64,000 bases of DNA, taken from NCBI GenBank assembly GCA_040954595.2, contig CM082583.2, positions 2,861,060 to 2,925,059 of the forward strand, read 5' to 3'. The notes below the pieces were generated by a model, which was not told where the DNA came from, did not search any database, and worked only from the letters and a program-made list of their open reading frames with translations. Position numbers and translations under genes: made by a program. This document shows positions 428 through 55,560 of the stretch, one piece after another. Each line of letters opens with the position of its first letter. Positions within the stretch are counted from its first letter, which is position 1. The stretch is from Balanoglossus misakiensis (Eukaryota; Animalia; Hemichordata).

Positions 428-3400
428 CTGTGAAACTGGACGCCTCCTTTGATTAGGTGTTATGGAAAGTGGACTTGGTGGTGTTGGTGGATGACGACGT
501 CTCTGTGACTGGGGACTGTGTTGTTGTGGAGGTGAAGGTGAGCTGGTGGTTGACTGCTGTGGTGCCACACCTAAATGGTGAGATGTATTGGCTGTGTTGG
601 CGAGATTACTAGAAGTCTGATCTTCAGCATCCAATGGAGTAGACAACGGTGACGGAAAGTGGAGATTGGTAAGATCCGGCAGTGAACCAGTGTTATTGGA
701 GATTGGAATATGAACACCTGTATCTTGATCTGATGGGTATATACTGTAGTGTACACATAAAATAAGGGGAGTTACTGGAGATTTACATAATACAGTAGAA
801 CGTCGATTATCCGCATTGTTCGGCTATCCGAACTCACTCTGTGTCCCCCGAAAAGTCTACCTGTACTAGGCGTATACCTTGCTTAATCATTGTTTGATAT
901 TCACGGCCCTCGCTGTCAAAGGAAGGCATCATACAGCACTTTCCTCTTTAAAAAAGTTATTTCTTTAAACAACATTACCGCTCATTAGCCTTTTGTTTGA
1001 ATGCTTAAAGTGATAATGATTTTTATTATACATCTAGTGCCGAGAACAATAGATTTTGGCGTGCAATAAAAAGCCGTACGGAACGGTACGTACGGAACGC
1101 ATGTTAAATAAGTCTTAAGTTTCAAGGCGCCCCAACTCACCGTGTACAGGTATGCGTTGTTATGCGGACGGTTTCAAGACACCCCCACTCCAACGCACGT
1201 GAACAAAAAAGAAAGATGGCTGCTCACTGAGTCAACTACATGTAAGCGGTTTTCGATCGATTGTATCGGCAATTGGGGCGTTTTGAAAGCCAAGTAACAT
1301 GCAACACAAGAACTAACGGAGATGTAAGATGTATAATAATAAGGTTATTACGAAAATACCGCAAAGTATGCACTCGGACATTAGCGCAGCACATCGCCCT
1401 CCGCTACGCGTCGGGCGATACTCGGCGCTTATGTCCTCGTGCATACTTTGCGGTATTTTCGTAATAACCTCATAGTATCCTCAGGTATGAATCATTTGGA
1501 TACAATCGCAAGAGGTGTGAAAATAAACAGCTCGACAATGGCACGGTTCGTCAGCCGCAAAGCTTTGCCAGCCTTGCTAAAAGGTTGCGACCGATGGTTG
1601 GTTTCTTCTTTAAACGTTCGCGGCATTTTGTCAAAATTTGAAAGTGATAACTGGTTCGGTAGAAATGTTTAAAAACCCTTGGGTTTTGGGAAATATTACC
1701 ATTTGTAATGCCAGTAGTGATCTGCCGGGAAACATCGAACCGACCGACATTGCTCTGCTTCCGCCATTACTGTCTATGCCATCATGGCTATGTCATGAAG
1801 CGAGCGTCACGTGCTCGACCTCACATCGTCATTCTTTTATTTTTTTTCAACTTTCTCATAATTTTACTTAATACAGTATTTAAAATCATCCAAATTTACT
1901 TAGAAATAAAAATAGAAAGGAAAACGATGTGTCTTGTCTACTATGGTACGGGTTTATGCATGCGTGAGATGTGACCCCGCCCCCTTAAGTTTGCGTATCC
2001 GAACCGATCGCATAACAGAACCAAAAGCCTGTCCCCCTAGCTGTTCGGATAATTGACGTTCTACTGTAATGAAGACTGATAGGTAAACACTGTAAATAAA
2101 CAAAGAACTAAACACTGTAAACAGGTAATGAAATGAGGATTAATCCTCAAATCTGAAATGTTTTGGGACCACTTAAACCGTTCACATGCAAGTATTTGAC
2201 CTGAGACGTTTCAGAAACGCCTTAATGGTCTCTATGTGAACCCTGTATGAAACAAGTCATCATCAATGCCCAGTTGCACAATGATCACTTTCTTAAATGA
2301 TGCTGAAATCGTTGATGATCTGCGAACGGACGAACCTTCCTCCTATTCTTTAAGTCCCCCCACCTTCAAGGCGGGAACTAATAAGAAACACATGCATGCA
2401 AAATAAACATCACAATATTATGCTCGCCCATCACAACAAGGACTTTCATGTGAACAGAAAAAAAAAATGATTGTGTACTTACTTAATACCAGGTACTTCA
2501 CATGACTTGGGTCTTGGATGTGATTGTTGCTGTGGATAAAATAGTCTTAGAAGGTCAGTGACTTGTCCACCTTCAATTAATTGTATTTTGCGACGTTAGA
2601 CACGGACTTTCCATAAATAGTTGTTGTGACATCCTTCTCACCAAACGATGCCAGAACAATTAATTCCTGTATTTGTGTTTATTCATGTCTTTGTTCTACT
2701 TGTGATCACTGTTTGCTGCTTTCTCTCTCAAGTTACGCATGAACTGCATAAAACTGACAAACATAGCATTCTGATCAATTTTATTTAAGACTTTTGTGGA
2801 CACATGTACCACACATTTGGTTGATAACTTCTCTTGTTATATTTTCTCATCACTGGATTGTAAACATCTACATGTACTGCATTAAAGGGACAAACGCTCT
2901 CTCTCGCTACCCTTTTTCCATTAATTATGTTTGATGCAAGACACTGTTTATGTTAATGTTCATGTGAATACATAGTGAATCAACATTCAACCGCACACAA
3001 CTTCCATCCCACTTGTAGACATGAGGGTGAAAAAAACTCGCCAAAATGAATAATCGTTCTCTACCATTTATTCATTTTGGGCGAGTTTCTACTCTCATAT
3101 CATACAAGCCGGGTGGAAGTTGTGTGTGGTTGTGTCTCATTCACAACATATACACATGTACATTAACATAAACGGTGTCTTGTATCAAACAAAATTAATG
3201 GATAAAGGGCAGCGAGAGAGAGACTTTGTCCCTTTAATGAATATGCGGCTTGTAAACAAAGTTACAATACAGCACCAACACCACCATCACCACCACTGTT
3301 GGTATTACACAATATAGATAAAAACAACTCAATTTTACAAACTATTTGTTTGTAAAAATTTTCTTGTATATTTTATTTTCATATAATCTAACACAAAACG

Positions 3401-6400
3401 AAAATGTGTCAGATTTTAAATACTAGCCTAAATATAAGAAACACCAAGTCAATGACAGAGATGTGTTGTATCTCAATGACATTGAGTAATACCAACATCA
3501 AGTGTTCTTCAAGGCCATCAGAGGATACATTTGTAAAGATATTAATGGAATATCCTTGTAACATTTCGACTTGATTGAAACTGAATGCATTGAAGAGCAC
3601 TTTTGAAAAAGACAACTACAAATTACTGTACTAGCACAAGAAGACAACATTACACGCACCAGCAAGTGTACCTTTTTGGGATCCCATAAAGCTTTCGGAA
3701 TATTTCTATCACCACCTCCAACATTACCATCAAAAACGTCTGCTGTCAGAAAGAATTCAATGGTTAAAATTTGGCGAACAATTAACAAGGCATTAAAATG
3801 AAAAACAGTTATGAACAGTGAATGTGCTCCCAACTTTAAAAAAACTACAACAAAAGGAAATATGTAAATTAGAAATAATACACAATAGCTACTGTTGTGA
3901 GAACATTACCAACCTGTATTACATCATTTTGGGACAGATTTGTTAGTCATTCATACAGTGCATGTTTATCCAATATGGTGCTGTAATTTTAGGGTTATGC
4001 GAATTGAATTTCTTCATTCTTGTCAATAAACTGCAATATGTCTCATACAACAGTGATAGGACCAGATTTGGCATTGATATTATTCCAGATTTTGCAACTT
4101 TCTTGTCATTTTAAATGCATGATGCATTTTCTTCCCTGACGCAGAAACGTTTTCATGAGTTCACACTCAGCATATCAGAAGTCTTTTCTTACACTTCACT
4201 CAGAACTTTCAGTTTCACTTGTCCATGTCATCAACCCGACAAATGTCACACAGTCTATAACCATTGATTCATTGTCAAACACCAATCAATGAAACCCTTT
4301 CCTCAGTCCCCTAGTGTCTGGTTGGCACAAGATTTCCTTACCTCGTCTGTGTCCAGGCTGCATACCAGTTCCTATACTACCAGACCCATGGAATGATTCT
4401 GTATTTGTTGGATTCATAGCACTGGTATGTAATGCTGAATCTGAATTTGTCCTGTCAAAGTCAATCAAACCAAGAAATGAGAGTTAACTCATGATGCTTT
4501 ACTGCAAAGAACAACTGAACCTCAATTATCTGATTCAAGAAATACACAGCAACCAGCCAGAGAAGAAAGCTAGAGTGATGTGGTACATGTACATAATCAG
4601 TGTTTTTGTTGTGAACATTTTGCTGTCTGCTGTAGGGATGCACAGTAAATGCTCTCAATTGTAAGAGTGATTGGCAACATGAAATTAATTAAAGAACATT
4701 GAGCCATGATGGAACTTCCTGTTATAAACAGCATAATGTTGGGGGATATGCATGGTATAAAGAAGAACACCCTTCATGAGCGAAAAATAATGATTGCTAT
4801 AGTCCTCTCCAAAGATACATTGGACAAATTAGACAGGTGTCGACATGTTAATGAAATAATTAGCAAATTCATTCCACATTTAAGTACAACAGAAGGTTCA
4901 GCATGTTTTGTATGTCAAGCCATTCATACTAACTTCTTCTTTAAACATAGAACTTGACCTTATTGTTCAAAAGTTCAATGATCTCACCAGCTCATTTTTT
5001 TAAATAGATAACCCAATAAAATGCCACAGCTACATTCTGTACATGTATGTGTAATTAGCTTTATTGCATAAAATCAACATGTCTAATATGCAAAGAGTTG
5101 CACTAAACCTTCCATCTTTGTTGCTATTTATTTCAACCTCTATCTGGGTCACATGAGACATAAACTTGTTAGCCTAAATGTTTCAAACAAACGCAATATT
5201 CTTGGTGGGCTACCAATCACAGCCCCGGTACTTTCCAGCGGTCAGCTGCAGGTAGCTGGAAACTGGAGTGAGTGTGTAGAATGCGTAGTCCCTCTCAGAA
5301 ATCAACAAGTCACTTGTTGATGGGTGACAATAGACAATCAAACAGCCAATGCATAATAAGCTAGGCTTAGAAAGGTGTTAGTGAATGAAACAAACATTAC
5401 CGGGTTTACGCCTTTATCATCAGTAGGACACTCTCCCAAGATGACACGAAAGCGAGGCCAGTAAGCCATTGTGTATCATCGCTATAGTTGGGGAGGGTAA
5501 TTTTTAAATGTACAACAAACCAGACAAGTTCGAGCAGTACTCCATGGCTTTCTGGCCTTGTTTTCACATCATCTTCTTGGAGATAACGCCATTTTTTGGA
5601 AGGGCACCCTCTTTATGAAAGGCATATTGTCTCTACTATCTTGAGACTCATTATTCTCTGTGCATTTGCCTGTTTAGCTGGATTTTCCACTGAAATATTG
5701 CCAAGGTACACCTTTAAACTCACTGACAGCAACCTCTGATTGAAGCATTTACATACGTGTGTATTTCTCAGGCAGAAGTGACTACTTTATCTAATATAAT
5801 CTTTTCTTCTAACTGATCCATCTCAACATACTGACACATACATGTACAATGTGGGATATCATTATTAGTGCAGATAGGTAAGGTTAATGACCCTACAATA
5901 TTGAAGACTAGACAGAATCATCAAATGGTTAATCTACTTTCAGTTATTTAAATTGAGCAATGCTGGGACACTAAAATAATGTGGTTATACTATGAAGAGA
6001 AAAGAAATAACAAACATGTGACAATACTACTGTCAAGCACTGAAACTGAAGATGTAAAAACATTTTAGCGTTATAACAATGGAACTGTGTGACCCTGCCA
6101 TCAGCAATAACTGTAGTTTCTTATTCAAGTAATTGAAGCATGATGAAATAACAGTACCGTAGTTTGCCGGGTAAGAGCCCCGGGTGCTGGGCCAACAGAT
6201 TAGCGAAAAAACAGGGGGGGGCTTTAGCCCGGATATGGCCTCGAGATTTATGCAAATGAGGGATGGCCACCTCGACTTTTATGCAAATTTTTGAGTGGTT
6301 CATTCTCCGAGTCCAAGTCGGGATCTTCCAATGTTGGGTGTTTCGCGTCGAGGACGGACTGAAGCAGCTCCACGCGGCCGCTTTGGAAAGCTCCCCGGTG

Positions 6401-9400
6401 ACCTCACACGCGGCAGCGCGTCCATCTACGTGATCGTTGAATTCGAGGCACGGTCCCGAGGGACCTGTCTGAGGTCATGTTTTCTAGAGCGGCTATATAT
6501 AACTCAGCGTGGCCAGTCGGCCGCGGTGGGTACGATAATCAGCGCGAAAGTAAATCATCCTACATTTTTTTTTCTCACTTTTAGTGACTTTGGGGATGAA
6601 AATCCGCCTTTTTTGCATTGCACTTTATTAAATTTCCAAGAATTTAATGGATATTCGGCCGGGGGGGGGGGGGGGGGGGGGGCTTTAGACCGGATATGGC
6701 CTCGATCTACAAATGGGCCCTAAAACCAGGGGGGGGCGTTTGTCCGAGCAGGGGCTCTTACCCGGCAAACTACGGTAGCTACAAAGTCATGTTATCGGGG
6801 TTCTCCTTGGTATATCAATTGTGAAGTCACATAGGTAGGGCCCTTTGGAGATATTATGACAGAAACTTCATGACTTTCACTTTGGCACACGATCTGTGCC
6901 ATACAGAAGTTATTTTCACACGTGGGGATGCAACATGTATTCTGCGACAGTAGAGACGGCCAATCAATGGATTAAATTATGCAAACTTTGTTATGCAAAG
7001 TACATGTAGGGTCATGTCGGGTCAGTTCATCAGTGGTTTACATGTAGCAACTTCTTTCAATCAGCCCTGGACAAGTGGCTTAAGAGATTTGTTGACAAAA
7101 ACAGGTGAGCTAAAAACTGTTAGATACAATATAGCCCAGTCTAACAGCCCCCCCCCCCCCCCCATCTGCATGAACTAATTTACACCTGCTTTTGAAGTCA
7201 AACCTATACCATACTTCCATTCCATGGAAAATGCACACTGACTATTGATACCATTGGCAGACAGTATCTATCATCATCATGCTACAGAAACACATCCAAT
7301 GATAAAAATTCAAGTAGACGTTACAAACCAGGTGCTTAGCACCCTCAATCTGGCTAAAAAAATCAAGTCAGAACCACCACTTGGTGGCGCCCAAACCTAC
7401 TTGTACACTTGTATGCAAGAGAAAGGTGTCAACATGATGATTTCAGTACAAAAATAATTGAGGTTCAATTGTAAACATTATATCCTTGAAAATATGTAAC
7501 AAACAGAGACACACAAGTGAGAGAGACAGAGAGAACATTTGAGATTAGTGTAATGAAACTGAAATGGAGAAATACAAGCATGAGTATGTTATGGCAGTTT
7601 TATTGCAATTACCATTGTGCATATGCAGTATTCTAAGCTTAGCATCACTTGGGCCAGCTGGCTCAATGTGTCTACAATTACCGGTACCCTACACACCACC
7701 TTTACTGTGTGTTGCCTACCTTATTGCAAGTAACTTGGGGACACTCTCATGGGAATTGTGTAACCACAAACTACAGATAAGAAAACAGTTGTCTTTTCTT
7801 TAATGCTCAGTTTAACTATTATTTTACTAATATGAATAGTTGACTAACCACTTATTATTTCATTTTCACAATGGTTTATCAATGTGTAGACTCAGTGAGA
7901 GCAACAATGGTTTTTCATTCACTGTTTATCACTGTATTATTTTGTCACAAAGAAAACCACACAGAAAACATGTAAAGTAAAAAAGTAAAGAACATAGAAA
8001 ATATGACACACATATTAACAACACATACAGTATACTGAAATTAAGTACACAAAGCTGGCATTTAATAAACTTAAATTCATTCATTCGGAGATGATTCCCT
8101 AACTGGCTTGTTTTTAAAAAATACAAGGCTGTGATTTTAGTCAAAAACGAAAAAAGTGCTATCATCATAATTGTTTCATCATTGGTTTGTTTATGGGTGA
8201 ACACATTCAACACAGTTTACTAAACAATGAGCAAGGTGGCCATACAACTTTATTCGACCACTATAATTTGATTTGGCTGAGCTATGTGTAAAACTTCTTA
8301 AGTTCTTGTAAATGACAATAGCAGAACAGGTTTTTGGCAATTCTCAATGTATCCCATGAGAAGAGAAATTCCACGCTTTCATAATGCTTGCAAATCCTTA
8401 ATTAAGCAATAAAGGACTGACTGAAAATATCATTAAATTAAATAACATCTGGCAAATATAACACAAATAATCCTCAAGTCCTCTCTAAATATCACTCATT
8501 GCTATACTTGAGCTTATTTTATCTTTTTGCTACAAAAGTGGTCAGATTTGTCATACTGGGGTTAGAAAAACCCAATGGTACATTAATGTATTTGTATGTG
8601 TAATTTTAAGATGTAGAAAATAACCGGTAGTGTTTTAAAAATCGGGGAAAGATTGATGCCCAAGAAAACAATATTCAATGTTTGTCTTGAATCTGTAGTT
8701 TCTGACTATGAGAATCTCAAATTCAGAATATAACATCATTCATCCAATGTTGAAACTGCAGATAGACACCCATATGCAAGGAACAGGGATGAACAATTAC
8801 ATATATATGTAGACAAAGTAGTAAAAGGATACTTACCTTCGCCAATTTGTATCCGGTGGTGGTGACAGGTAGTGTCCATAAGGTGATGCATCTACCTGAG
8901 CCAAGTTAAGGGTCACTTTCACTACATTTGTACAAACTCATCATGATACATTATTCAATAAATTATACCAAGTACAGTCTTTCATCTAAACAGGGGGGAT
9001 GGGGGGTTGGACATATTGGCACCCCCTAGCAATTTGTTAAGGGGGGACCAGTGCCCCTTAAAATGACGTCACTCACATGTTTGAGATGTTACATTCCCCC
9101 TTGCCAGAGTGGAATCCCCCCAAATATTCTGGTAAAGGGGGACATATCCCCCCTGTTGATACCATCCTGGATGAAACACTGCAAGTACTGTCAAAATTAT
9201 AACCCATTTGATCCAAATAAATGAAATACTTGAACTTGCAAATCTGCTGGATTTATATTGGAAGCATCATTAATTGGCAAAATGATGAACACCTATTGCC
9301 TGGCCATGAGGGCCCTAGCAGCCGTTTATTACCCCTGAGGGGCTGGGAGTTACCAGAATCACATGCTATTTCCGGAGGCCGTATGATTCAGTCACGAGGG

Positions 9401-12400
9401 GGTAAAAACGGCTGCCATGGCCCGAATATAGGCCAGGCCATAGGTGTTTTATAATAAACCTCACTCACGTTGGTCACGTGACTGGTTTAAATTTTTTCTG
9501 CTATTTCCCTAGGGATTCAAAGTCGATTCTATTTTCCTATTACATGACGGATTCTGGGGAATCACGACACAGTATTAGCATGAGGTATATTATAATTATT
9601 ATCCCCTGTGAATACTAACAATTCTGAAAAGTACATGTATCACATGTATCAGTTTTTACATATATTATCACCTTTGCTCACAAACACATTTTAATCTTTT
9701 GTCAAAAAAATTATCCCAGTCAATAATTCTGATTGTCCTGGATTCAATAAAAAAGACACATTTCTCTCTGTCACATAAGGGCATCATGCACAGAATGGTA
9801 CTTTTGGTATAAAGTTTGCCAGACTTCCGAAAATGTTTAATGCAAACACATAATCAGAAAGTACCTGTACAAACTCAACACTATCAATATTTTCTTTGTT
9901 CTAACAGGTGGTTTTACATTTTCATCAGAAACCAGTCCATTTTTTCATACCTCCAACACATTTAATGCGGTTGGTCTTCTCTCACAAGATTCGGTTTTAT
10001 AACCTTGTCTTCTAACTTGGTATTGAGTACATTATAAATAATTTGATAGCTATTATAAATACTCAAGACGTTCTGCTTGATTTAGAATTGCCAAAAACTT
10101 TGTATGTTTACTCCCCTGCTTTCAATAACACTTTTTATATTATAGCTTTATCAGTACAAGTGAATTTTGTGATTTCATAGCTGTACATTATTACTGATAA
10201 TGTAAAGTGATATAGCGTGGACACGCAACACGCCCAAGAACCAGCTTGACGTGTACATAACAGAAGCTGCAACTTTAGGGATATGTTTCAAACTGTACTA
10301 CCATTAGTCCATGCAGATGAAGGCAGTGAACTATACACAAGCATTATAAACCCTAAATATGAGTGTATGTTTTAACCAGATAAATAATAAAGCTTTGCCA
10401 CAAAGGAATATGGCCGCCACCGTGGGAAAATGCAAGAAACAATTAAAATGTTGCATTTCCGGTTATGAAACTTCATAAACAAAACATGATCTCATCCACT
10501 TGAGCTCATGGAAGTAAATGTACACAGCTGAGACATTATATTTTCCTTTTTCATTGCAATATTGCACTTTTTTTAAAATTGCAGGAATTTTCGTTTTTCT
10601 TTAATTTTTGGCCATTTTGTCATAAATAAGTGTTGAGCTTGATATATTATCACGAAATATAATTTAATAGACATAATTAAAAGCCTATATGAGATTATTT
10701 AAAACCAGTTGCAGCTCATGTACCTTTAAGGGCTAAAAAAGAAATGCAAACTTACACAGAATAAAAACAGCGATATTTATTAATTTCCAAACCTGATCTC
10801 GACTACTCCACTAGCGATTTGTTTATTTTTTTCTTCCTACCGTGGCAGTACATGTTGTCTTCTCTTGAACAGCGCATTCGCATCGTACATTATGTCGCAC
10901 AATGTGTGCTTTCGTCCATTATGGGTCTTCGGGGCGTACATTCATAGGTTCAGCGGTTTTACAGATCTGGCAGGTCGAAAAAATGTGGCGAAAAAAAAAA
11001 AAAAAAACTCCAGCAAAAACAATAGGGGCCCAAGCCCATAAAAATTACTACAAAACAGTGGTTCCATTAACAAAAAATCTTATGTATGTTACGCATTTGT
11101 ATCATTTGTTATGCCTAAAAAATAAACTGTGTGTCGAGTGTACTTTTTTCAACCACAAGGAATGTACTTCATAATCGTAACGTTACTTACAGTGTAAATG
11201 GCTACACGCGAACTAAAATGGTATGTATAACTTATACGCGACCCAAATGAGTGGCAGAAGTTTGAAACATTTTACTCTTTCTTGGTTGCGTGGTTGCTAT
11301 TACAGTGACAGGCATCAACATCGACAACAAATAAAACTATGTCTCTCCATTGTCTTTTTTTAAAGGTTCTTTTAGCGAATGCAAATCATTGTTATCAAGA
11401 GCTTCACTTACATGTACTAGTAATTCACAGAGACGATTCATTCGCTTGTCATCATCATGAGCCGTAACCGCGATCAACAACAGTTGGAAAATTGTCACCC
11501 TTGGGTTGGAGGAGGAAGCTAGTTCAAATTTGTGGCCACAACCAAGCTCTTGAAGGCTGTGTTAGCAGTAATGGATCAATTAAACGAAGTTGTCGTGAAT
11601 GATCTAATGATGATCACAATGGAAGGCCCTGTGGTTGCCGACTTTGACTTTCAGGAGGCCATGTTGTTATTTCGGAACAGTGTAATCGTCGGAAGTAGAC
11701 TTTGCATGAATCGATACTGATCGTACATGACTCACCTGAACTGTACATAGTCTAAACATAGACAGTAGAGAGACAGTCCCATTGTCACATTGGATGTGCA
11801 CATGTGTCTACATGTATACCTAATCCAAGTGACAGGCATCAAATGCCTTATCCTATCACAACAAAGAACATATGACTGCATATCAATGTGGTTCCTTAAG
11901 TTTCTTTGACTGCGTTTCACTGTACATAGTACTGTTTGACCAAGGCCGTAATTTTACGTCCATGGTTTGATGATGCAGAGTTTGATGTTGTTGTGGTATT
12001 TTTTCACCTGTGAACTTAGTCGATTAAACACAGCCTGTTCGACTCTAAATATTGCATAGTAAAAAGGTGTTTTGTTGGAATGTTGGTGATGACATGAGTG
12101 AAGTTTATTCTGATGCTTGAATATGCAAATTTCACAACCCTATTGTTTATGCAATCTTGTCACATTTTATGCGAAAAAAATATTGAATGCGTATAAAATA
12201 CGTAAGATAAAAACAATCTAACAGAACCACTGCTACAAAATCAATAGGAGCCCCACCCCTTTCGGGGGCTTGGGCCCTAATGACAATTTCAACAGGGTCA
12301 TCTTGAACCACTGCTGAGTGGTGGTACCAGGTGTCTAGAATGGGAATCAGGTATAAAGCATACCCTGCTAGCATGCTACAGGTATTAAGAACAGCCCCGT

Positions 12401-14908
12401 CAAAGTTTTTGTCAGTTATCAATAACAAATATAGCAGCTGAATACGTTTTTCTCATTAAAACTTTTTGGTGCTAAAATCAAATTGTCGTCATCTTTCTCA
12501 ACACCCATCACACTTTTGCACATTTTCTCTAAAATTTTGATAAAGACCGGTAGGCAAAGGAAATTTTTGTCCATTTGGTCCAAAATTAGGGGGCATGAGA
12601 GAAAATGCATAAAGCTGAAACATTGTTGCACAAAAATTTTGGGTTAAAATTGTGAGCTGAAAAATATGAACTTTTCATAACATTCGATCGGAAATATTGT
12701 ATTACCGGTACTATCCAATAATGTTTACAAAATCACTGTGGATGAAGTGAAACTGCAATGAATGCATGAAGGGACTGCATTTTTTTTGTCCTGGCTTGTG
12801 AGGACAAAGACTAGCATCTCAAGTGTGAAGCAAAGGCTCTATTTCACAAGGACTAAGTAAGAGCAACACCTGTTGTTACTAAAACTACACATATACACAC
12901 ATGTGTAGTACTACGCTACATATGTTGATGTCACTGACACTGAATATGGCACTAAACACGTTATATACTACAAATGTTACGTAATAACCACCCCCACACA
13001 GACACTTCTTGCACATAAATAAAATAACATTACCTTATTTCAACTTTTGCCTTACAGCCACCTTAAATCTAATAATGTTCAGATTGTGCGTGTCAGCAAC
13101 TATCATGATCATCATATTTTCTCATTTTATTTCTGTGCTAAAAATCAGAGAGAACCTGAATAGACAAAACTTTGACAGGTTGGTGGACATCTTCAGAAAA
13201 CACATAGAATGTACATCTATACCCCTATGTAATAATTCAGCTTATATTATATCATGCTACCGTCCGCCATTCTGATTGGACGAGAGCTCAATCCAGCGAT
13301 GCTAAAATAGTCATATAGCACTGCTGGCAGTGCTAAAACGGGCCCCTGAACTAGCATGCGGTGGTGAAAATGTGCGGTTGAACCACAGTCGCGTCGTGTT
13401 AAACCAAATAAATAAAATGAAAACACCGTTGAATTTACGGACGTTTAATTTTGGAACTGCTGTGTAGGAATATTTGTCACTTTGCCACGCGCGACGCAGG
13501 TCTGGTCACTTTTTGTCGTCTGCTTCATGTTTAATGCTCATTCCCGGCCGCTCGTGTTTACATTCATCGTCGCCGTGTTGGTTCACGATCGTAATTTCTC
13601 TTTCTGACGCCGTTTCGGTAAGATAATGACACTGATATGCCACAAAAACAATTGTTGATATAATATAATAGCAATAATCCCCGCCTCAGTCGGGTATACA
13701 CTCGATTTGGGCTCGTGACGGCTCGTGCTATATGTCTCGAATTGTACCCAAATCTCGTGTATACCCGGGGTTATTGCTTAATTATACCACCTAATTAATA
13801 TCTTAACTACTAGTACATATTAGTGAAAAGCACCAACATTTCATCCCAAACAATTAACAAAAAGCTATACAGAAATGGCTATGTATTGCTGCTTTTTTGT
13901 AAGTGGGTATCTGGAGTAACTTATTCAGTCTTCATGGTGTAGAGTAGAGGGTACAAATCTCTAATCTACACTTGTAGAAGATGAGACTCAAAGGTGCATG
14001 TGACAAGATTGTGTTCCCTTTGCATTTCCAGTTTTAAAATCACTCTAGCTACACAAGTTAAATAATAAACCATATAGACAAAATATATTATGAAATCACG
14101 ATTTGACACATGTATTTAACAACACTTTCCGTCCCTGTAAAAGAAACCTGTGATCAGTCCGGACCGTCGGTGCGGACTTACTAAGGCGTCCCATACACTG
14201 TGACGCATAGCCCTTCATGACCTCAATAAATGCATGGCCTAGACTGACCCAAACACACAACTGCACACGGCATTGACATTTTAATTTTGCTCAAAAAGGA
14301 TACTCTCCTATGTGTTGTTACACGGCGTGGCATACGGTCTATTAAACTGGCACGACCCGATTTCATGTCTTCTAAACCTTGTAGAGCGCTCTGTAACCAG
14401 AAATTTACTGTAAAAATCAAACAGCTCACGAGACAGGCTACAATTCACGACATGGAATAAGATATAAACAGGCACGCAGGTCTACATAACAAAACGAATA
14501 CAAGCCACTCACTAACCTGTAAATCGATAGCGTTACTTCCAATTTGGTTGACATTTGGCAAGGAACCACCGCGATAGGCGCCAAGACTTTGTAGTTGAAG
14601 ATGGTGCGACTTCTGATAGTGTGCCTACAGAACAAACACACCAAACATGAAGAAGTACAATTTTCGACCCACATCTCTGATGACATCTTCGACACACAGA
14701 CATCCAGTCGATGTACGGAAGCATCAGTATCACCACAGCCAAGCTGGAGTCGCCATCTTCGCATCGTTAATGTAAACCATTCACCGAAAAGACTTACCCT
14801 GGCCACACTCGAGACTTCCTTCATAATCTGTTCAAATGCCGCGGTTTCCTCTGCCTGTTTTTGATTGTGAAGGGCGATTTTCTCGCTGAATTTCCTTGGG
14901 TTCGCCAT
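428..14908 (-). CDS. CRTC1: CREB-regulated transcription coactivator (TORC), 5' part; continues beyond the window start
   Basis: Exons with consistent phases and GT-AG ends: 14908-14798, 14624-14517, 14390-14304, 8895-8837, 4451-4342, 3742-3672, 2529-2483, 743-428. Translation shows family motifs [29 protein letters not shown] (CREB-binding domain), [46 protein letters not shown] and [21 protein letters not shown]. Probably the single invertebrate CRTC1/2/3 pro-ortholog. Confidence 0.96.
793..2066. mobile_element. Non-autonomous Tc1/mariner-pogo-type DNA transposon
   Basis: TIRs CAGTAGAACGTCGATTATCCG / CGGATAATTGACGTTCTACTG flanked by TA. It contains a nested hairpin element at 1339-1473. 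Confidence 0.85.
1339..1473. mobile_element. Short hairpin element (GA-mismatch class)
   Basis: Near-perfect palindrome with two TC/TC mismatches on the plus strand (GA/GA on minus) and a GTA loop on minus. Partial copy at ~30855-30935. Confidence 0.8.
2886..3233. mobile_element. Fold-back MITE with TTAA TSD (Kolobok-like AG...CT termini)
   Basis: ttaa-AGGGACAAA...TTTGTCCCT-ttaa, palindromic over its whole length. Related partial copies at ~27880-28180, ~40945-41070 and ~46215-46430. Confidence 0.8.
6157..6775. mobile_element. MITE with TA TSD (pogo/Tigger-like)
   Basis: Perfect 24-bp TIR CCGTAGTTTGCCGGGTAAGAGCCC flanked by TA, with an internal direct repeat GGGGGCTTTAGNCCGGATATGGCCTCGA. 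Confidence 0.88.
9285..9598. mobile_element. Bipartite hairpin element (GA-mismatch class)
   Basis: Hairpin AACACCTATTGCCTGGCC...GGCCAGGCCATAGGTGTT, followed by a second inverted repeat ATAATAAACCTCA...TGAGGTATATTAT. Related fragments at ~49355-49460 and ~63350-63470. Confidence 0.7.
10253..10725. mobile_element. TTAA-type MITE, paralog of 54267-55079
   Basis: Aligns with 54267-55079 and ends in GTTGCAGCTCATGTACCT-ttaa. It lacks the 54705-55000 insert. Confidence 0.7.
13243..13786. mobile_element. Bipartite hairpin element (GA-mismatch class), paralog of 49856-50412
   Basis: Aligns along its length with 49856-50412. Ends are TATATTATATCA and TTATTGCTTAATT; the internal junction is TGATATAATATAATAGCAATAA. 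Confidence 0.8.
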
Positions 14909-14984
14909 GTTGATGGCTTACCAGTATATTACCAGATGAAAAGGAGAATGTTGTCATTCATAGCTGTGTGGGGGGTCTGTCGTA

Positions 14985-24462: not shown

Positions 24463-27400
24463 TATAAATTTATGGTTGAGCACAAATCTGTTTTTTTCCA
24501 GTGTCAAACGTATGATGCCCTCATGATGTCCACAGAGAGTACAGTGGTAGTCAATGGTGTCCTTAGAGAAGTACCAGAGGGCAAATCTGTAAGTAGGACA
24601 GACTTCAAGGACAGTATGACCTTCAAGACAGTGCAACATAATGACAGCACCAGCTGCAGTGAAAGTTGGCAAACCCCACCCATCCCTCAAACAAAATGGG
24701 GGTTCATGGTGCAGTTGGAATTTTGTACTTATAATCGTCAAAATTGGCACTGCCACACTTTCTTTTCACTGTAGAATCCTGTAAAGAATACTAAATTGTC
24801 TTTCTATATTATAATAGCAAAGATTAACAGCAGAATTTATTCACTGCTTGTAGGCTCCTGGTGGACATGAGTTAATAGTGGATTACTGGGAACTAATATC
24901 TGCAGCACCAGCAGGTGGAATAGATAATGTTCTCAATGAGGTAAGATACATTGTAGCATATGATGTTGTGTTTTTGCTTTGTAATAGTAATGTTCATGAA
25001 TAGAATGAATGTTTGAAGAAAGTATCCACAATAGTTCGATTTTTTGCAAATGTTTCATATTTCACAACACTTCTGATCAATGGACATTTTGCTCATTCTC
25101 TGCCGCTTTGTTTTATAGGAGTCTCATGTTGATGTTCAGTTGGATCAAAGACACATGATGATCAGGGGAGAAAATGTAAGTTCCATTTTCTCGTCAAAAT
25201 CAACCGCATTACTACTGAATTTCATGTGAAATTGTCTGTAGACAAATTTCTGAATTATCTTTGCAATTGACAGAATTATCTTATCAGCAATTTTAACTGA
25301 ACCATGATGTTGACATTTTTTGTGTTTGGTACAATAATGCTGATAATTTATTTGCAATATGTATAAAAAAAACATTTGACACTCAATACTTTTTAATAAG
25401 TTTGTATTCATAATTTTAAGCTCAAAAATCACATATGATAAAGTTTTGTCTATTTTCAATATTCATTGACATGACCTTCAGGTTTTTTTCCTCTTTTTGT
25501 AGCTTTCCAAGATTATGAAAATAAGATCTGTAGTAACACAGTGGTAAGTATTTTGCATACATTTAAGTTTCCCAACCATGCAGCTTGATCATATTTAATA
25601 CTGATGGTTTATGTCATAAATATCTCATGATTGGCTGATCAGAATTGGATGTGGCATACAGGTTCTGTCTTGAAATGCCAATATTTTGGTGGGTGTGTCC
25701 TGCATATTAGTTAAGTAAGGGGTTTTCTGATAATGACTTGGAGTTGAATTAAATCAAACTTGCCATGTGACATCTGACATCAAAATTGGATCATATTGTG
25801 ACACCCATTGTATTAATACGTACAGAAGCCTTACATGATGTCATCTCACTGTAAAAAATGACAAAAAATAACAAAAATTTAATGTCTTCTATCTTTAAAA
25901 TTAATTGTCAGCTTCCGTGATCATTACTTCAGCCGGGGTTATTATGAGGTAAGTCTAGGCAATTAAGGGGAAGGTCAGTTAGACTGATTTTGACATGTGT
26001 GCTTGCTTTGGGTATGGTATATCACAAAGTTACAAGTCAGAGCTCTCACTGGACTCCATTGTAAAGCAATGAGGATAGCCATAGACATCACAATCTGATT
26101 AAAATCAGATATAGGGAACGGCGACGTGGTTTTTTTTATGCTGTCGCCTCACACTACATCTGACCAACTCCCACTGGAGCTCCCGTTGAAATCTACAGGA
26201 TTTACTGGGCCAGTAAACCAATCAGAAGGTGCCTTATAGCAAACGATAGGCATCCACCATTATCACAATCATGACCTGGCCCCTTGCGGCTGTTAGTGTT
26301 ACCATGGAGCTACTATCCCAGGCGCGAGAGTCGAATCAGCGTGGGGAATGGTTTCGAGCCAGCGTGACGACTGAACCTCTATATTCCACCGGCCAACGAA
26401 ATGTATAAGACGTGGCAACAAGTCGCAGTAAAATTGTTAGAGAATTGATTACATTTGTGTAAAGGCCCTCCCAGAACAGGGAAAGGATTTTGCTTCGATA
26501 AAATCGAATTTCGACCGAAAAAGCTGCGGTCCGGGTCCGGACCGCAGACGCACCAGTTTTGTCTATGGGGCCTTATGCAGGGGTGTGTGCGTCGGGAACA
26601 CACAGACCTGAACGCGGAGCTATGACTTGACATTCCTTAGCCGAAGTTAGCGTTATTTTTAAAATCCTGTCACATTAATGGTTGTGGGATACATGGCAGT
26701 GAAATTTGTTTTATTTTCTTATAAACTTTTACATGAAGTACGTCATTTTCCCGACTGGCAGCATGACTACGAGGGCGAACATGACTTGTTAGGAGAGTTT
26801 ATAAATGATCAACGACAGTTCATCATTTGTATATGGCTACAGCTCGACATTGCACTGCTCTGCGAAAACCACTCGCATACGATGACGCCAAACAAAGAAA
26901 CATATCATGGGATTACATGTAATTGTTCACAAGAGAAAGCCAATCAGTCATATTCTGTGCGATACTCGAAGTCAACAACAAAATTTCAAAAAATCTCCCA
27001 GTGCAATTATTTGGTCGGCGTAGCATGCAATCTAATTGGCCGGGTCGGAATGCCCGATTTCAACGGGAGCTCCAGTGAGAGTTGATCAGATGTAGTGTGA
27101 GGCGACAGCATAAAAAAAACCACGTCGCCGTTCCCTACATCTGATTTTAATCAGATTGTAGACATCAGTACTGTCCGTATATGGTAAAAAGGGCATGTCG
27201 AAGGCTTTGACTGATAATTGGGTAGCGCTTCTTTTCACATCCACTGTGTTTATTTGCAGACGTTTCCTCCAACCATGGTGCAGACTCAAGTAGAGGGAGG
27301 ATCAACATTATTTAAATTGAATTATTTTGGTGAAGAGGTGATGTGAACCATTTAATTTTTCTATAATTCATCTCCATTGCCTACACTGTGGAAATATGTC

Positions 27401-30400
27401 TTGTGTATTTTCTAACACACACTTTGAAAACATGATGTTGCTTGGATTGCCAAGAGTGTGGGATTTGAAATCTTACCAATATTTGAAATTCCAGGTAGGT
27501 TACCAATTATCCACTTGTTGAGTTTTGTTTTCTTTCTTTCTCTCAGTTGGTAGAGCATTCTCATCTGAAGTTGGTGTGGGCTTACATGTATGTCTTACTT
27601 TTAGGACACTCCCCCCCCCCTCCACACATACACACATTGAAAGTGTATGACAAGCAGAAATCAGTCGACTTTACTTTCTTCAGTTGTTGTTACACGATTG
27701 ATCATTGGCTGTTGCTTTGTTACATTTTCTTGTAGGCTTACTTGACACAGTCCTCACAGCTGTATCTGGAAACTGCACTTCCATCTTTAGGAGATGTTTA
27801 CTGCATTGCACAGAGTTACAGAGCTGAACATTCTCGTACTCGTAGGCATCTCTCAGAGTAAGTTATTGATTGATGTTTAAATGGACAAAGTCTCTCTCTC
27901 TTGCTGCCCTTTGTCCATTAATTATGTTTGATACAAGACACCGTTTATGTTAATGTACATGTGTATATGTAGTGAATGAACGTTCAACCACACACAACTT
28001 CCATCCCATTTGTAGGATATGAGAGTAAAAATCTCGCCAAAATGAATAAACGGTAGAGACCGATTATTCATTTTGGCAAGTTTTCCGCTCTTGTCTACAA
28101 GTGGGATGGAAGTTGTGTGTGGTTGAACGTTGATACACTATATATCCACATGTAGAATAAAATAAATGGTGTCTTTACATGGTCTCCCAAAGACTTTAAA
28201 GCTCCATTAGCTATAATCTTTTTGCTATGTTTTCAGTATTTTTGTTTTGTGTATCCAATGCCATTTCTTGTTCAAATTCCTGAAGCATGATGAAATGCCC
28301 AGCATTTAGCTTATCAACACAACATATATGTTTATAGTAAGCATTGTTATTGTGCAAAGTTGGATTCAAGTCCGGACTAGAATTCATTTGTCAACAATAA
28401 CAATGGCCACTACACTCATATGGCTATGTTGACAAGTGGAGTAGTCGGTGGGTATCATTAACACGCTGTTTGGTGTGGAACAAAAAATTGCATTTTGATA
28501 CACAGTCACAGCTAATGTCCTTTGAATGACCCATATTGAACATGTGATGAGAACATGGCTAGGTTGCAAGAACTGTTGGGGAAATGTCCATGAATCTTAG
28601 TCTCTTACTGGTTCTCTTCCTTCTGACTTTCTTCCCCTAGATACACCCATGTTGAGGCTGAGTGTCCATTCATATCATTCAATGACTTACTGGACAGAAT
28701 AGAAGATCTGGTATGCGATGTTGTTGACAGAGTTATGAAATCGGATGTAGCACCCCTTGTCAAAGAACTGCATCCAGTAAGAACAGCTACATGTATACTG
28801 ATTATTTCTATCTAACTGATTTTACAAGCATATAATATATCGCCTAAAAGGTAGCCCATATTTCTGTTGTTGTCAAGGTTGAGACAAGTCCAAAGTATCT
28901 CTTCTGTAACGTCAATCTCACCCAGAAAACAACCAACCACACAAAACTGACAGACTGATATTATAAGACTTATTCCAAAAGTGGGAAAAGCCTGGTGAAA
29001 GGATCTACAGGTTGATCTCATGGAGATTTTGTCTAAACTCAGCATGACATCTTATGGTTTAATTGGAATTTAGTCATAGACACTCGTCTTTTCAAGAGTC
29101 TCTGTTTTATCGCAACCACAAAGAGATTTATTTGAAACTCAAAATTAGCGGATCTATGTATGTGATAAACATATAATTCCCCCGTATTCCTCACTCGTGT
29201 ACCTGCGTCGCGAACTCGTGATTCCCCGTATAGCTGTATCCCTCCTCGCCTGCGGCTCGTAGGGATACGGCCGCTATACGGGGAATCACTCGTCCGCGAC
29301 GCAGGCACACTCGTTCGAAATACGGGGGAATTATATATAATAATTCCATAAGCCTCTGAGCTTTAAAAAGTCAGGAAAAAACCCTAATAGTTTTGTTTTG
29401 TGACAGCATTATGTAATTTGGTCTGACTCTATTTTATTGTGTTCAGATGATGATGACAAAATGGTGCATTATTATGACCTATGTGATGTTTATTCTTGTG
29501 AAGAGCAGGTAGACATTACTCTGTCAGATTGTCTCACTATAATTCATGTGTCAACCACCTGATACAGATTGAACTGTTGGTAATTTTTAATGAACTGTAC
29601 AACTTTGCAACCGTTGTTGTTTGGCAGGATTTTGTTCCACCCAAAAGGCCGTTTAAGCGTCTGGAATACAAGGATGGTATCAAATATTTACGTGAACATG
29701 ATATCAAAAAGGAAGATGATACATACTATGAATTTGGTGAGGTAAGTTTTAGGATCAGCTTAAATACGTGTCAATGAATATTGTAGATTTATTCACCAAT
29801 GTTTGAATAGAGAAAATCATATTATAACCGAGGGAGACTTGTTTGGAGGCAGGTTGGGTTAGCAAGAATGGAGACAGAGCAACAAGTATACCTAATATAG
29901 TGGACATGAAACAAATCGGATGTCTTATTACTGCCACCTTCTGCAGCCAACAGTCAATGAGAATGAACGTGTTCTTTAAAAATCTACACGTAGTCCTCTT
30001 TTAGTCAACAATTGAACATACATTGGTGCATTGACATAATCATTTTGTCAGTTTCTAAGCACAGTCATGGTCAATCTTACAGTTATATAGTACCCAGAAT
30101 TTTGGTGACTTCCTTGTTACTTTCATTGTTTATTTTTGTCGATTTTTTTTAATTGTAGGATATTCCTGAAATGCCAGAGAGGAAGATGACTGATCAAATA
30201 AATGAGGTTTGTGTAACTCTGTAATTGTATTCTGGTGTCATGAAAAGTGAAATGGGGCTAGATCTTTTAATATCATTCCTCTCCTCAATTTTAGTTGGGT
30301 ATACAGTGGGACTCTCTTGTTCAAGTATTTTGAACTCACTGTGTTGTTTCCTGTGGTCAGCACAATTTACTTTATGGATTATGTGAAACAAATGACTGAT

Positions 30401-31862
30401 GGCATTTTTGAATAATGTGGTTGGAAGTCTCCTTGTTTAAATAAATGTTCATTTATTCTGTAGTTGATTCAAATAGTAGAGTGTATATTTGTAATGTCTT
30501 TTCTGAATGCATAGTAATCCCTACTTGTTTGTTTCTTTGTAGCCAATTCTCTTCTGCCGTTTTCCAGTTGAAATTAAATCATTTTACATGTATAAATGTC
30601 CAGAAGATAGACGACTAACTGAATCTGTAAGTAGTCATGTGAAGCAAAATGTTCTAAATGTTCAAAATGTGCATTTTGTAGGAATGTACTTGTACTAGAA
30701 ATTAGGGAGATCTGGCCACTAAAGTCCATTATTAACAATTTTCTCCTACAATTTTGCCTTGAACGCTAATAGGCACATATTTTTAGCACAGGTTATTGTA
30801 ATATCATTGTTGCAGATTGTTAACTTTCAGACTCGAAAGAAGCTATTTTGCAATGGACATTAGCGCAGCGCATCGCGATATGCGGCACTAATGTCGTTGT
30901 GCATACTTTGCGTTAATTTCGTAATAACCTCATAATATCGTCTATGACAGTTTATTAGTATTAATTTCCTTTTAGGTTGACCTGTTGATGCCGAATGTTG
31001 GTGAGATTGTTGGAGGATCCATGAGGATGTGGGATTATGATGAACTTATAGAAGCTTACAAACGTGAAGGTTTAGACCCAGAGCCATACTATTGGTATAC
31101 GGATCAGGTATGTTGTTGTCAAACATGGTGTATGCAGGTGAACTAGCACTAATATAGCAATATCAACAAGCATGATAACTGCAGCTTGCTTCAAGACTTC
31201 ACAGGTGAACTAGATGTGATGACTTTCTTGGACGTTGTGTTGACATGTACCCAGCACAAGACGATGATTGACAGGCAAAATGTATCAAAAGCCTGGTCCA
31301 TGTGACTGACCCATTGGTAGACAAGACGCAAAGAGTATAAAACTTGAAAGTCGACCTCACTTTACGAATGAAAAGTGATTCCATCATTTGCATATTTCTA
31401 GGCAACACAGATCCTTTCACAGGGGAAAGTAATCCCGCGAAATAAAATGCTAGACCGCTCAAACATTTTAGCAAATTATTGGAATATTTTTATCCTACTT
31501 CTAACGAAAAATAAGAAGACTGTTTATGTGATATATATATACTAATCCCATAAAATTTTTCTTTGCTTAACATCATGGTATACTCATGGTTTTCGCGGAG
31601 TCGTACAACTTCTCGCCTACAGCTCGAAGTTGCCCGACTGCTCGAAAACCACTCATATACAATGACATCATACAAAGAAAAATATCATGGGATTATATTT
31701 CAAAAATATATTGTATGTCTTTATTTTCAGCGTAAATATGGATCATGTCCTCATGGTGGCTATGGTTTAGGATTGGAACGTTTTCTGACGTGGCTACTGA
31801 ATAGACAGCATATAAGAGATGTCTGCTTATACCCACGCTTCACAGAAAGATGCAAGCCCTAA
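19028..31862 (+). CDS. NARS1: Asparagine--tRNA ligase, cytoplasmic (~559 aa, 20 coding exons)
   Basis: Exons: 19028-19058, 21330-21421, 21630-21695, 22263-22355, 22750-22839, 23092-23173, 24032-24102, 24502-24588, 24854-24940, 25119-25175, 25503-25543, 25912-25948, 27260-27337, 27736-27857, 28641-28776, 29628-29741, 30159-30206, 30543-30626, 30976-31107, 31731-31862. Total 1680 nt, open and phase-consistent. Motifs [62 protein letters not shown]. Exon 1 is the least certain. AATAAA at ~32370 and 32747. Confidence 0.97.
19963..20572. mobile_element. Long-TIR MITE with TTAA TSD (Kolobok-like)
   Basis: ttaa-AGGGGAAATCCGCTGTAGC...GCTACAGCGGATTTCCCCT-ttaa with TIRs of about 230 bp. Second copy at 41490-41981. 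Confidence 0.88.
21874..22173. mobile_element. piggyBac-like MITE (CCCTAA...TTAGGG, TTAA TSD)
   Basis: Reverse-orientation copy of 42577-42891 and 45055-45672. Confidence 0.8.
23418..24005 (+). mobile_element. DINE-1/HINE-like (Helentron-associated) non-autonomous element
   Basis: T-run, then a sub-terminal inverted repeat GGTCCCAT...ATGGGACC, then a GTAT/GTCT/GTCC microsatellite. Related copy at ~33040-33330. The class assignment is inferred. Confidence 0.55.
24388..24460 (+). repeat. (AACC)n/(AATC)n microsatellite
   Basis: Direct tandem tetranucleotide repeats. Confidence 0.9.
26091..27158. mobile_element. Mutator/MULE-like non-autonomous element
   Basis: TIRs of about 105 bp starting CAATCTGATTAAAATCAGAT, with an exact 9-bp TSD TAGACATCA (26082-26090 and 27159-27167). 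Confidence 0.9.
29171..29338. mobile_element. Short hairpin element (GA-mismatch class)
   Basis: Palindrome with four TC/TC mismatches on plus (GA/GA on minus) and a GCA loop on minus. Confidence 0.8.
31543..31696. mobile_element. Short hairpin element (GA-mismatch class), decayed
   Basis: TAATCCCAT...ATGGGATTA arms with TC/TC mismatches; the centre reads CTCGCCTACAGCTCG. Confidence 0.7.
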
Positions 31863-35696: not shown

Positions 35697-54127
<18,431 letters not shown>

Positions 54128-54266
54128 CTGCAACAGAAAAAAGAGGAATTTGTTTAACTGTCATCAATATCATGAAATGAATGAATGAATGAATAAATTT
54201 CCATAACCTCCTATGACGCAGAGTATTGGACAATGTCTTTACTCCAGTGAGTCTGTTTAAATTAAA

Positions 54267-55079
54267 AGGCACATAAGCTGCAACTTTTGGGATAATTATC
54301 ATACTTTTTTTCAAACTAGACTACCTTTAGCCCATAAGGATTTATGCACTGAAGTATATGCAAGTATTATAAACCCTACATATCAGTGGATTAACCAGAT
54401 AAATAATAAAGCTTTGTCGCAAAAGAATATGGCCAGCACCGTGGGAAAATGCAAGAAACTATGAAAATGTTGCATTTCCCACTATCAAACTTCATAAACA
54501 AAGCATACTCTCATCCATTAGAACCATTGAGAGTCTATGTTAGAACTCATGGAAGTAGATGTACTCCACTGAGACATTGCATTTTCATTTTTCATTGTAA
54601 TATTTATATTTTTAAATTGCAGGAATTTTTTATTGTACCCATATTTCTGTAATTTTTGGGGCCATATTGTCATGAATAGGTGTTATTGATATATCATCAA
54701 GCAATTAAGAAATGAAACACCCCCAGCCATGGTATACCACGAGATTTTGACCAGTTCACGACATATACGCACGAGCGATAGCGAGTGCATATATGGAGTT
54801 GAATTGGTCAAAATCGAGTGGTATACCATGGCTGGGGGTGTTTTATTGCTATTATATTATGCCAGTATATTGAAACTTTGCATAAAACATTTTAAAAAGG
54901 CATTTTCTTTGACTATGATATATGACTGTGGTATATGGCTAATATATCACGGTCAATAGCGTGATTTACACCATCAATATACTGGTATAATATAATATCA
55001 TATAATAGCCAAAATTAAAAGCATGTCCAAGATTATTTAAAGCTTAATTTTTTTTTATCCAGTTGCAGCTTATGTGCCT
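54267..55079. mobile_element. TTAA-type MITE hosting a hairpin element
   Basis: TIR AGGCACATAAGCTGCAACT / AGTTGCAGCTTATGTGCCT with TTAA flanks. Confidence 0.85.
54703..54997. mobile_element. Bipartite hairpin element (GA-mismatch class), nested
   Basis: Hairpin at 54705-54855 with three GA/GA mismatches and a GATA loop on plus, then a second inverted repeat ATTATATTATGCCAGTATATTG...CAATATACTGGTATAATATAAT. Confidence 0.82.
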
Positions 55080-55399
55080 TTAAATGGTGGTGATGGCAGT
55101 CTTTTTGTTCATCTTGTGGTCACCATTAAGATACCAAGCAATCACTATTTTGAGCTGGTTACAGTACTGCAACTTGTACTATGACTATGACTCTCAAAAT
55201 AATCAAATGTGAGAATTTGATCATTGAACTAGCTACAGATTAAGCGTCGCTACATCATGAAAACGTTTGAGCAGAAATTGGATATTAAACATCAGTTGAC
55301 TGAACAGTTGACAGTTTTTGTTTATCGAGATGATATATAATCCATAAAATAGACAAAAAAAAATTGTGAAACATGTAATTTATAACGTTGTTCACATCA

Positions 55400-55560
55400 A
55401 CAAACCGGGATTCTCACACTACTGGACCTGGGATCATATTTCTCACAAGAGTTGGGGATTTTTTGTCCCACACATGAGCCGCAGGCGAGTGTGGGACAAA
55501 ATATCCCCGACGAGTGTCCGAGATCAGACTGTGGTAGCTCCATGTGTATCGCAAGGCCCG
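55400..55560. mobile_element. Hairpin element remnant (GA-mismatch class)
   Basis: Centre CACACATGAGCC-GCA-GGCGAGTGTG, with an outer GA/GA mismatch. Confidence 0.65.

What the first reader, a model, noticed from the sequence alone, without database searches (positions are those of the whole stretch)
1339..55560. Unrelated small elements share a strand-specific folding code: tandem GA/GA mismatches and GNA/GNNA loops
Seen: at least six sequence-distinct hairpin families (1339-1473, 9288-9450, 13670-13780/50270-50410, 29171-29338, 31543-31696, 54705-54855, 55440-55525) are near-perfect palindromes. Their recurring mismatch is a 2-nt TC opposite TC on one strand, which is 5'-GA/5'-GA on the other, mostly in a cGAg context. 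There are four such mismatches in 29171, three in 54705 and two in 1339. On the GA strand the loop is C-[GTA, GCA, GATA or GTTA]-G wherever the tip is intact. Established: tandem sheared G.A pairs and C-GNA-G or C-GNNA-G loops are unusually stable in single-stranded DNA. Inference: structure rather than sequence is conserved, so one strand folds fully and the other does not. That is what a mobile unit recognised as folded ssDNA would look like (compare integron attC, REP/RAYT, IS200/605 ends), and ordinary MITE decay would not produce it. Individual families may already be in repeat libraries; the shared code is the candidate novelty.
Basis: partly seen in the sequence, partly recalled or inferred. 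Interest (0 to 1): 0.85.

Follow-up and report, generated by a model that had tools for sequence, protein, structure and literature searches.

The report
Jumping genes built for single-strand folding
Six unrelated small mobile elements in an animal genome carry long DNA hairpins whose built-in G-A mismatches and loops sit on one strand, and four unrelated tails pair back onto the hairpin base, which suggests these likely Crypton-type transposons move as a folded single DNA strand, a route not shown for them.

Summary
Clean 2x2 loops are GA-type in 11 of 14 cases, against 0 of 13 in 13 control hairpins. Tips carry GNA or GNYA loops on the GA strand. Corrections: 54705 is related to 13670/50270 (six families remain), the 50270 tip is flipped, and 31543 closes with T-G. 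New here: five copies carry a 145-430 nt tail 3' of the GA strand. Its short inverted repeat makes the hairpin-tail junction a mirror of the two element ends. One empty site shows at most a 3-bp repeat. The same cap sits in small ssDNA virus contigs. Best reading: non-autonomous CryptonA elements whose GA strand folds into a dumbbell for a tyrosine recombinase. No recombinase could be tied to them here (no genome held); that link rests on recalled Eulor5-like ends. The scan reported this code before in at least six notes on other genomes; my paper searches did not find it described.

The parts
1339..1473 (-). Hairpin, family 1; two GA/GA loops, C-GTA-G tip on the - strand
1023..1340 (-). Tail of family 1, bounded by a 13-bp perfect inverted repeat that starts at the hairpin base
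9286..9450 (+). Hairpin, family 2; two GA/GA loops, tip partly deleted
9449..9595 (+). Tail of family 2, 15-bp inverted repeat with one mismatch
13670..13780 (-). Hairpin, family 3, with an internal deletion; tip not flipped (GTCA loop remnant)
13242..13669 (-). Tail of family 3, 13-bp inverted repeat, CCAAT-type motif at 13268-13279; TATAAT lies at the element's far end (13246-13251) and just outside its near end (13781-13786)
50270..50410 (-). Hairpin, family 3; outer and middle purine loops on the - strand
50330..50351 (+). Inverted tip of the 50270 hairpin (GA/GA loop and GTTA loop on +)
49855..50269 (-). Tail of 50270, homologous to the 13242-13669 tail
54706..54850 (+). Hairpin related to family 3; three GA/GA loops, C-GATA-G tip
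54850..54997 (+). Tail of 54705, 24-bp inverted repeat, unrelated to the other tails; element end placed at about 54991 from the empty site
10654..10665 (+). Empty site: a paralogue (10260-10703) of the TTAA-bounded element into which the 54706-54991 unit is inserted
29171..29338 (-). Hairpin, family 4; four GA/GA loops, C-GCA-G tip; no far tail end found within 1.5 kb
31543..31696 (-). Hairpin, family 5; two GA/GA loops, T-GTA-G tip; shares a 9-mer with 29171 just 3' of the hairpin; no far tail end found
55438..55525 (+). Hairpin, family 6; outer GA/GA loop and GA-capped C-GCA-G tip; no tail found
30860..30940 (-). Collapsed second copy of family 1
26837..26918 (-). Half-hairpin copy of family 5
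49357..49454 (+). Half-hairpin copy of family 2
63341..63433 (+). Diverged partial copy of family 2

Best explanation
These are gene-less mobile elements, likely non-autonomous CryptonA (tyrosine-recombinase) transposons, built as a long hairpin plus a tail, whose GA-bearing strand is predicted to fold on its own and likely serves as the recombination substrate. Shown: the layout A-arm, tip, A'-arm, short spacer, B, tail, B', so the internal junction is the reverse complement of the two ends put together. Shown: the tail lies 3' of the GA strand in 5 of 5 copies with a tail, and insertion leaves no long target duplication at the one empty site. Inferred: as single-stranded DNA the GA strand folds into a dumbbell. 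The left end pairs with A' and the right end with B, which brings both ends together on a short duplex. Sheared G:A blocks and GNA loops keep the hairpin stable and mark the strand. Inferred: a recombinase supplied in trans joins the ends and swaps one strand with an AT-rich target resembling the element's right end, and replication resolves the junction, as in integrons and CTX phage.
For: GA/GA enrichment and polarity. Inverted repeats scoring 12-21 on the 3' side of the GA strand in 5 of 9 hairpins, 5-9 on the 5' side, and 59 of 60 random starts at 9 or less. Four tails are mutually unrelated yet share the layout. The folded full elements pair both ends onto the junction (stems only). GA over TC needs two transversions, so decay does not favour it. 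All three tetraloops are GNYA, not the RNA-type GNRA (that rule is recalled). GCA loops closed by sheared pairs also mark Streptomyces ssDNA telomeres (PMC4513846, passages). For Crypton: AT-rich ends; a 6-bp TATAAT direct repeat at 13670, and target bases that resemble the element's end, as described for Cryptons (PMC3212892; PMC9977147, passages). Eulor5/6 are classed as Crypton by their termini (PMC5753468, passages), and I recall those termini resembling the family 3 ends (not checked). Tyrosine recombinases acting on folded ssDNA are established (PMC3458562, passages).
Against: No recombinase or HUH gene among 229 window ORFs, and no animal Crypton locus was reachable, so the enzyme is untested. 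Four of nine hairpins tested had no tail (29171, 31543, 55440 and the unrelated 59737). Kojima and Jurka found no terminal repeats in animal Cryptons. The only active Crypton watched (CryptonF, alga) excised cleanly and caused inversions and translocations, which fits two-strand exchange, though its copy number also rose. The G.T over A.C bias on the GA strand is weak (14 vs 6, p=0.058, 59737 included; seven controls gave 20 vs 15). The 50270 tip is flipped. There is only one, old (about 74% identical) empty site, and its 5' side matches the element end by only 3 bases. 9288 folds better on its TC strand in the energy model. Tail side is 4 of 4 unrelated tails, p=0.06 alone.
Confidence: 0.5

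Rival explanations
1. They are Crypton derivatives, but recombination is on double-stranded DNA. The folded strand only helps make the circle: the junction splints the two ends, as the internal complementary region does in DIRS elements, or the hairpin primes second-strand synthesis or extrudes as a cruciform. A double-stranded circle then integrates.
For: The standing model is a double-stranded circle (PMC13565253, passages). DIRS elements have an internal complementary region (PMC13465315, passages; its splint role is recalled). Clean excisions and inversions by CryptonF. The anatomy fits equally well.
Against: At the one empty site only 3 bases match on the 5' side of the crossover, whereas Cre-type duplex recombination needs a fully matching spacer (recalled). 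This rival still needs a single-stranded stage, so it does not remove the novelty.
Confidence: 0.25
2. The elements are moved by an HUH (Rep/Helitron2/Replitron/IS200-like) nuclease that peels off one strand and reads the hairpin, with the junction acting as a guide for the target.
For: The same cap occurs in Rep-encoding ssDNA virus contigs. IS200/605 ends are strand-specific hairpins without target duplication. Host bases 3' of the insert match the junction's complement in 3 of 3 family 3 copies. Earlier notes report Helentrons in this genome (unchecked).
Against: The tails do not end in CTRR, and by eye show no GC-rich terminal stem-loop; the target is not a T-run or an RG site with a variable duplication (Helitron end rules recalled). 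Paired inverted repeats around a short AT spacer suit a recombinase site.
Confidence: 0.15
3. The structure matters as RNA (tandem GA pairs in a transcript) or as host protein binding sites in duplex DNA.
For: Tandem GA pairs are also stable in RNA (recalled). Several copies lie in introns of transcribed genes.
Against: Loops are GNA triloops and GNYA tetraloops, not GNRA. No Rfam match. The link to the tail's inverted repeat and to the element ends is not explained.
Confidence: 0.06
4. Ordinary MITE decay or micro-inversion of GA to TC in palindromes, with selection of examples by the reader.
For: The test set was picked for the feature; CGAG and CTCG are reverse complements; one tip has been inverted (50270).
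Against: 0 of 13 control loops; pooled p=4e-14 and 9 of 10 concordant; family contigs keep the outer TC letters and restore CTCG at 50304 in 99% of depth; random inversion would not pick one strand.
Confidence: 0.04

Closest known systems
CryptonA DNA transposons and their non-autonomous derivatives (Kojima and Jurka 2011, PMC3212892; Eulor5/6 and salmon CryptonA-N2_SSa in Kojima 2018, PMC5753468)
   Same: Animal host, short gene-less high-copy elements, AT-rich ends, no long target duplication, a 6-bp direct repeat in one copy; family 3 ends resemble Eulor5 ends as I recall them.
   Different: The passages read report no terminal repeats for animal Cryptons and no hairpin; 'hairpin' and 'palindrom' occur 0 times in PMC5753468 and PMC13465315, and 'palindrom' 0 times in PMC3212892. 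The recombinase gene was not seen here.
Integron attC sites and CTX phage attP (PMC3458562)
   Same: Imperfect palindrome whose unpaired features mark one strand; a folded single strand rebuilds a duplex site for a tyrosine recombinase.
   Different: Bacterial; strand chosen by extrahelical bases, not tandem G.A blocks; mechanism proven there, inferred here.
DIRS tyrosine-recombinase retrotransposons (ITR plus internal complementary region)
   Same: An internal stretch complementary to both element ends.
   Different: No long ITRs and no reverse transcriptase; the complementary junction sits next to a long hairpin.
Single-stranded replicon ends: Streptomyces telomeres, parvovirus hairpins, CRESS virus intergenic regions
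   Same: GCA/GNA loops closed by sheared G:A pairs; the same 15-nt cap in L048 and L098.
   Different: Those are origins or telomeres of replicons, not dispersed chromosomal inserts.
IS200/IS605, REP/RAYT, Helitron2/Helentron, Replitron (HUH elements)
   Same: Strand-specific hairpin ends and no fixed target duplication.
   Different: Their hairpins are short; the end and target motifs of these groups are not met here.

Membership tests
CryptonA | Autonomous partner encodes a DUF3504 tyrosine recombinase and shares the ends | not testable with these tools
   No genome held; none in 229 window ORFs; no animal locus in the collections; PF12012 in 0 of 3 and 0 of 401 prokaryote genomes, where the control was also silent.
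CryptonA | 4-6 bp direct repeat at the ends; target resembles the donor end | tested here: inconclusive
   TATAAT at both ends of 13670; contig loose ends give a 5-of-6 match at the left flank; only AAT shared at 54706-54991 and its empty site.
CryptonA | No classical end-to-end TIRs and no long TSD | tested here: met
   The two ends pair with the internal junction, not with each other; 0-3 bp repeat at the empty site (one site).
CryptonA | Sequence likeness of termini to Repbase/Dfam Crypton and Eulor5/6 entries | not testable with these tools
   No repeat library; the paper's figure and supplements are not held; the likeness is recalled only.
DDE MITE (Kolobok, MULE and the like) | Terminal inverted repeats at both ends with a fixed TSD | tested here: not met
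   Hairpin-plus-tail units lack them; such elements in the window (TTAA-bounded; 9-bp TSD at 26082/27159) served as controls and lack GA loops.
Helitron/Helentron/Replitron | CTRR end with a short GC hairpin, T-run target, or RG target with variable TSD | tested here: not met
   Tail ends and the empty site read; the Replitron rule is, the Helitron rules are recalled.
Helitron/Helentron/Replitron | HUH nuclease in an autonomous partner | not testable with these tools
   No genome held.
DIRS | Long ITRs, internal complementary region, RT and recombinase genes | tested here: not met
   Only the complementary-junction idea is shared; no long ITRs and no coding capacity.
Folded-ssDNA recombination substrate (attC-like) | Unpaired features biased to one strand | tested here: met
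   17 of 18 loops on one strand per element; 9 of 10 concordant.
Folded-ssDNA recombination substrate (attC-like) | Enzyme binds and cleaves that folded strand; single exchange resolved by replication | not testable with these tools
   Needs biochemistry.

The most novel reading that the evidence does not exclude
Animal CryptonA transposons move as a folded single-stranded dumbbell. A tyrosine recombinase reads a site rebuilt from the element's two ends on its internal junction, while sheared G.A blocks and GNA loops, conserved as structure across unrelated families, select and protect the strand. This would be the first eukaryotic counterpart of integron and CTX-phage single-strand recombination.
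Probability: 0.4. Interest if true: 0.85.

Novelty: new variant of a known kind. Interest (0 to 1): 0.62.

Why it matters
A 2026 review states that the Crypton mechanism has not been shown experimentally and assumes a double-stranded circle (PMC13565253). The anatomy here names a strand, a fold, a crossover region and a target, so the question can be tested with oligonucleotides and one recombinase. It would also give a structure-based way to classify many unclassified palindromic repeats, and a likely origin for the conserved Eulor5/6 elements of vertebrates.

Tried and rejected
Rfam: 0 matches. Pfam on 229 stop-to-stop ORFs of 62 aa or more: only host genes (CRTC, class II tRNA synthetase, RecQ helicase, RPL36) scored clearly; no recombinase or HUH. 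End-plus-junction patterns: 0 hits in viral contigs; 10 in metagenomes and 8 in prokaryote genomes, none a GA hairpin. Tail-end pattern: 120 viral loci, about chance level; only 3 ungapped long hairpins in all 260 fetched loci, none with a GA loop. Cap pattern in viral contigs: most of 124 matches do not extend into a stem, so only the few small ssDNA-type contigs are used; I picked 10 loci by small size or stem length, and 4 had CRESS-type domains, with no enrichment test. PF12012 in prokaryote genomes: nothing, control silent too. Phage blastn with the 50270 element: no match. G.T versus A.C bias: inconclusive. 59737-59852, which I first added, was dropped: it has 0 GA loops and belongs to a TIR family with a 9-bp TSD; it stayed in the 'test' sets. 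The share of flipped tips could not be measured from contigs. PMC3500645, PMC9004415 and PMC6061790 (passages) added nothing on the ends; Kojima's 2019 review is not held.
Full report
Setting. The window is animal DNA, 38% G+C, with exons of CRTC, a class II tRNA synthetase, a RecQ helicase and RPL36. No genome is held. Earlier scan notes call the host a likely acorn worm; I did not test this. CryptonA families are listed for the acorn worm Saccoglossus (PMC3212892, supplement 1).

Observation. All eight hairpins exist. Arm-against-arm ladders give 17 GA/GA tandems on one strand per element and one on the opposite strand. The counts of four (29171), three (54705) and two (1339) are right. Among clean 2x2 loops, 11 of 14 in nine test hairpins are GA-type, against 0 of 13 in 13 other long hairpins. 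Tips on the GA strand are GTA, GCA, GATA, GTTA or GTCA; 31543 closes with T-G. Six families are unrelated by local alignment; 54705 groups with 13670 and 50270.

Family level. On 261 bases around 50270, 463 and 405 contigs from two runs of one sample were laid, with summed depth up to 163,000 against 54 in unique flank in X1 (the tool warns this is no copy number). At 50304, 99% of depth reads G, restoring CTCG (CGAG on the GA strand), and no row alters the TC letters of the outer loop. No row appears at 50380, so that side may be TGAG in most copies. Short contigs can lie on either arm, so this is supportive, not final. The 50270 tip is inverted relative to 13670. Loose ends at 50333 and 50348 and the 11-17% alternative letters at the middle loop show that the unflipped state is common; the flipped share could not be measured.

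Anatomy beyond the finding. The hairpins are one end of larger units. In 1339, 9288, 13670, 50270 and 54705 an inverted repeat of 13-24 bp starts at the hairpin base and closes 145-430 nt further on, always 3' of the GA strand (scores 12-21; 5' side 5-9; 59 of 60 random starts 9 or less). No such partner was found for 29171, 31543 or 55440, though the first two share a 9-mer at that place that occurs three times in the window on that strand. The four tail types are unrelated. Because the left end pairs with A' and the right end with B, the junction is the reverse complement of the joined ends, and the GA strand folds as a dumbbell in the model.

Insertion. The 54706-54991 unit sits in a TTAA-bounded element whose paralogue at 10260-10703 is empty. 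The target reads AAT then ATAAT; only AAT is shared with the element end, so there is no long duplication. In 13670 a 6-bp TATAAT lies at both ends. Host bases 3' of the element match the junction's complement in all three family 3 copies. This is one old site and three related copies.

Why single-stranded DNA. CGAG opposite CGAG forms a stable block of C:G and sheared G:A pairs by NMR (PMC10085684, passages), and GNA loops are most stable with a C:G closing pair (PMC3201870, abstract). GCA loops with sheared pairs mark the ssDNA telomeres of Streptomyces (PMC4513846, passages). The loops are not RNA-type GNRA (recalled rule). Against: the energy model cannot test the strand difference, and the G.T/A.C bias is weak.

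Which enzyme. None was found, and no search reached an animal Crypton locus. The Crypton reading rests on the end and target style (PMC3212892, first of seven parts, passages and supplement 1; PMC9977147, passages), on my recollection that Eulor5 ends resemble family 3 ends, and on the paper that classes Eulor5/6 as Crypton by their termini (PMC5753468, passages; figure and supplements not held). Six earlier notes reach the same reading on other genomes; they are not independent support. I put Crypton membership near 0.75. Folded-strand recombination by tyrosine recombinases is proven for integrons and cited for CTX phage (PMC3458562, passages). Clean excision and inversions by an algal CryptonF argue that some Cryptons exchange both strands.

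Novelty. Searches for Crypton with Eulor, palindrome, hairpin, single-stranded or inverted repeats, and for sheared or tandem GA with transposons (listings, plus passages of the papers named) showed no description of this end design. Repbase and Dfam notes, subscription journals and Kojima's 2019 review were out of reach and may describe the hairpins. A 2026 review says the mechanism is unproven and assumes a duplex circle (PMC13565253, passages); a 2026 CryptonA paper has no mention of hairpins (PMC13465315, passages).

Verdict. A real, non-random structural code shared by six families. Most likely these are non-autonomous CryptonA elements with ends shaped for a folded single strand (0.5 for the full model, 0.25 for a duplex circle made through a folded strand, 0.15 for an HUH enzyme). 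New variant of a known kind; interest 0.62.

Noticed in passing
window:26091-27159: A 1.07-kb element with about 70-100 bp TIRs and a 9-bp target duplication (26082 and 27159), MULE-like by that mark; it carries the 26837-26918 half-hairpin of family 5 inside. 59737-59852 is a collapsed, head-to-head copy of its TIRs.
   Followed up: partly
window:2880-3239, 19959-20576, 27935-28175, 41486-41985, 54267-55079: Long-TIR MITEs, most of them TTAA-bounded and Kolobok-like by their ends (label recalled); used as controls.
   Followed up: partly
window:54850-54997: The 54705 tail holds its own small inverted repeat in the middle, so the tail may fold into a second stem.
   Followed up: no
window:13268-13279 and 49882-49893: A CCAAT-box-like motif near the far end of the family 3 tail; it could be the promoter remnant of an autonomous partner.
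   Followed up: no
window:13781-13790 and loose ends at 50409: Flanks at the hairpin end tend to read like the far end of the 54705 tail, hinting that new copies land in sites resembling their own right end.
   Followed up: partly
L048:880-1130, L098:760-1030, L079, L080: Small CRESS-type ssDNA virus contigs hold the exact window cap; L048 and L098 show runs of GA/GNA-capped mini-hairpins on one strand between their genes.
   Followed up: partly
window:55590-55746: A hairpin with a third partial arm copy directly after 55440, just upstream of the RPL36 region; it has no GA loops.
   Followed up: no
window:16291-17076 and 34081-34866; 51552-51875: An 830-bp repeat in two copies and a very high-depth repeat stretch, both unclassified.
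   Followed up: no
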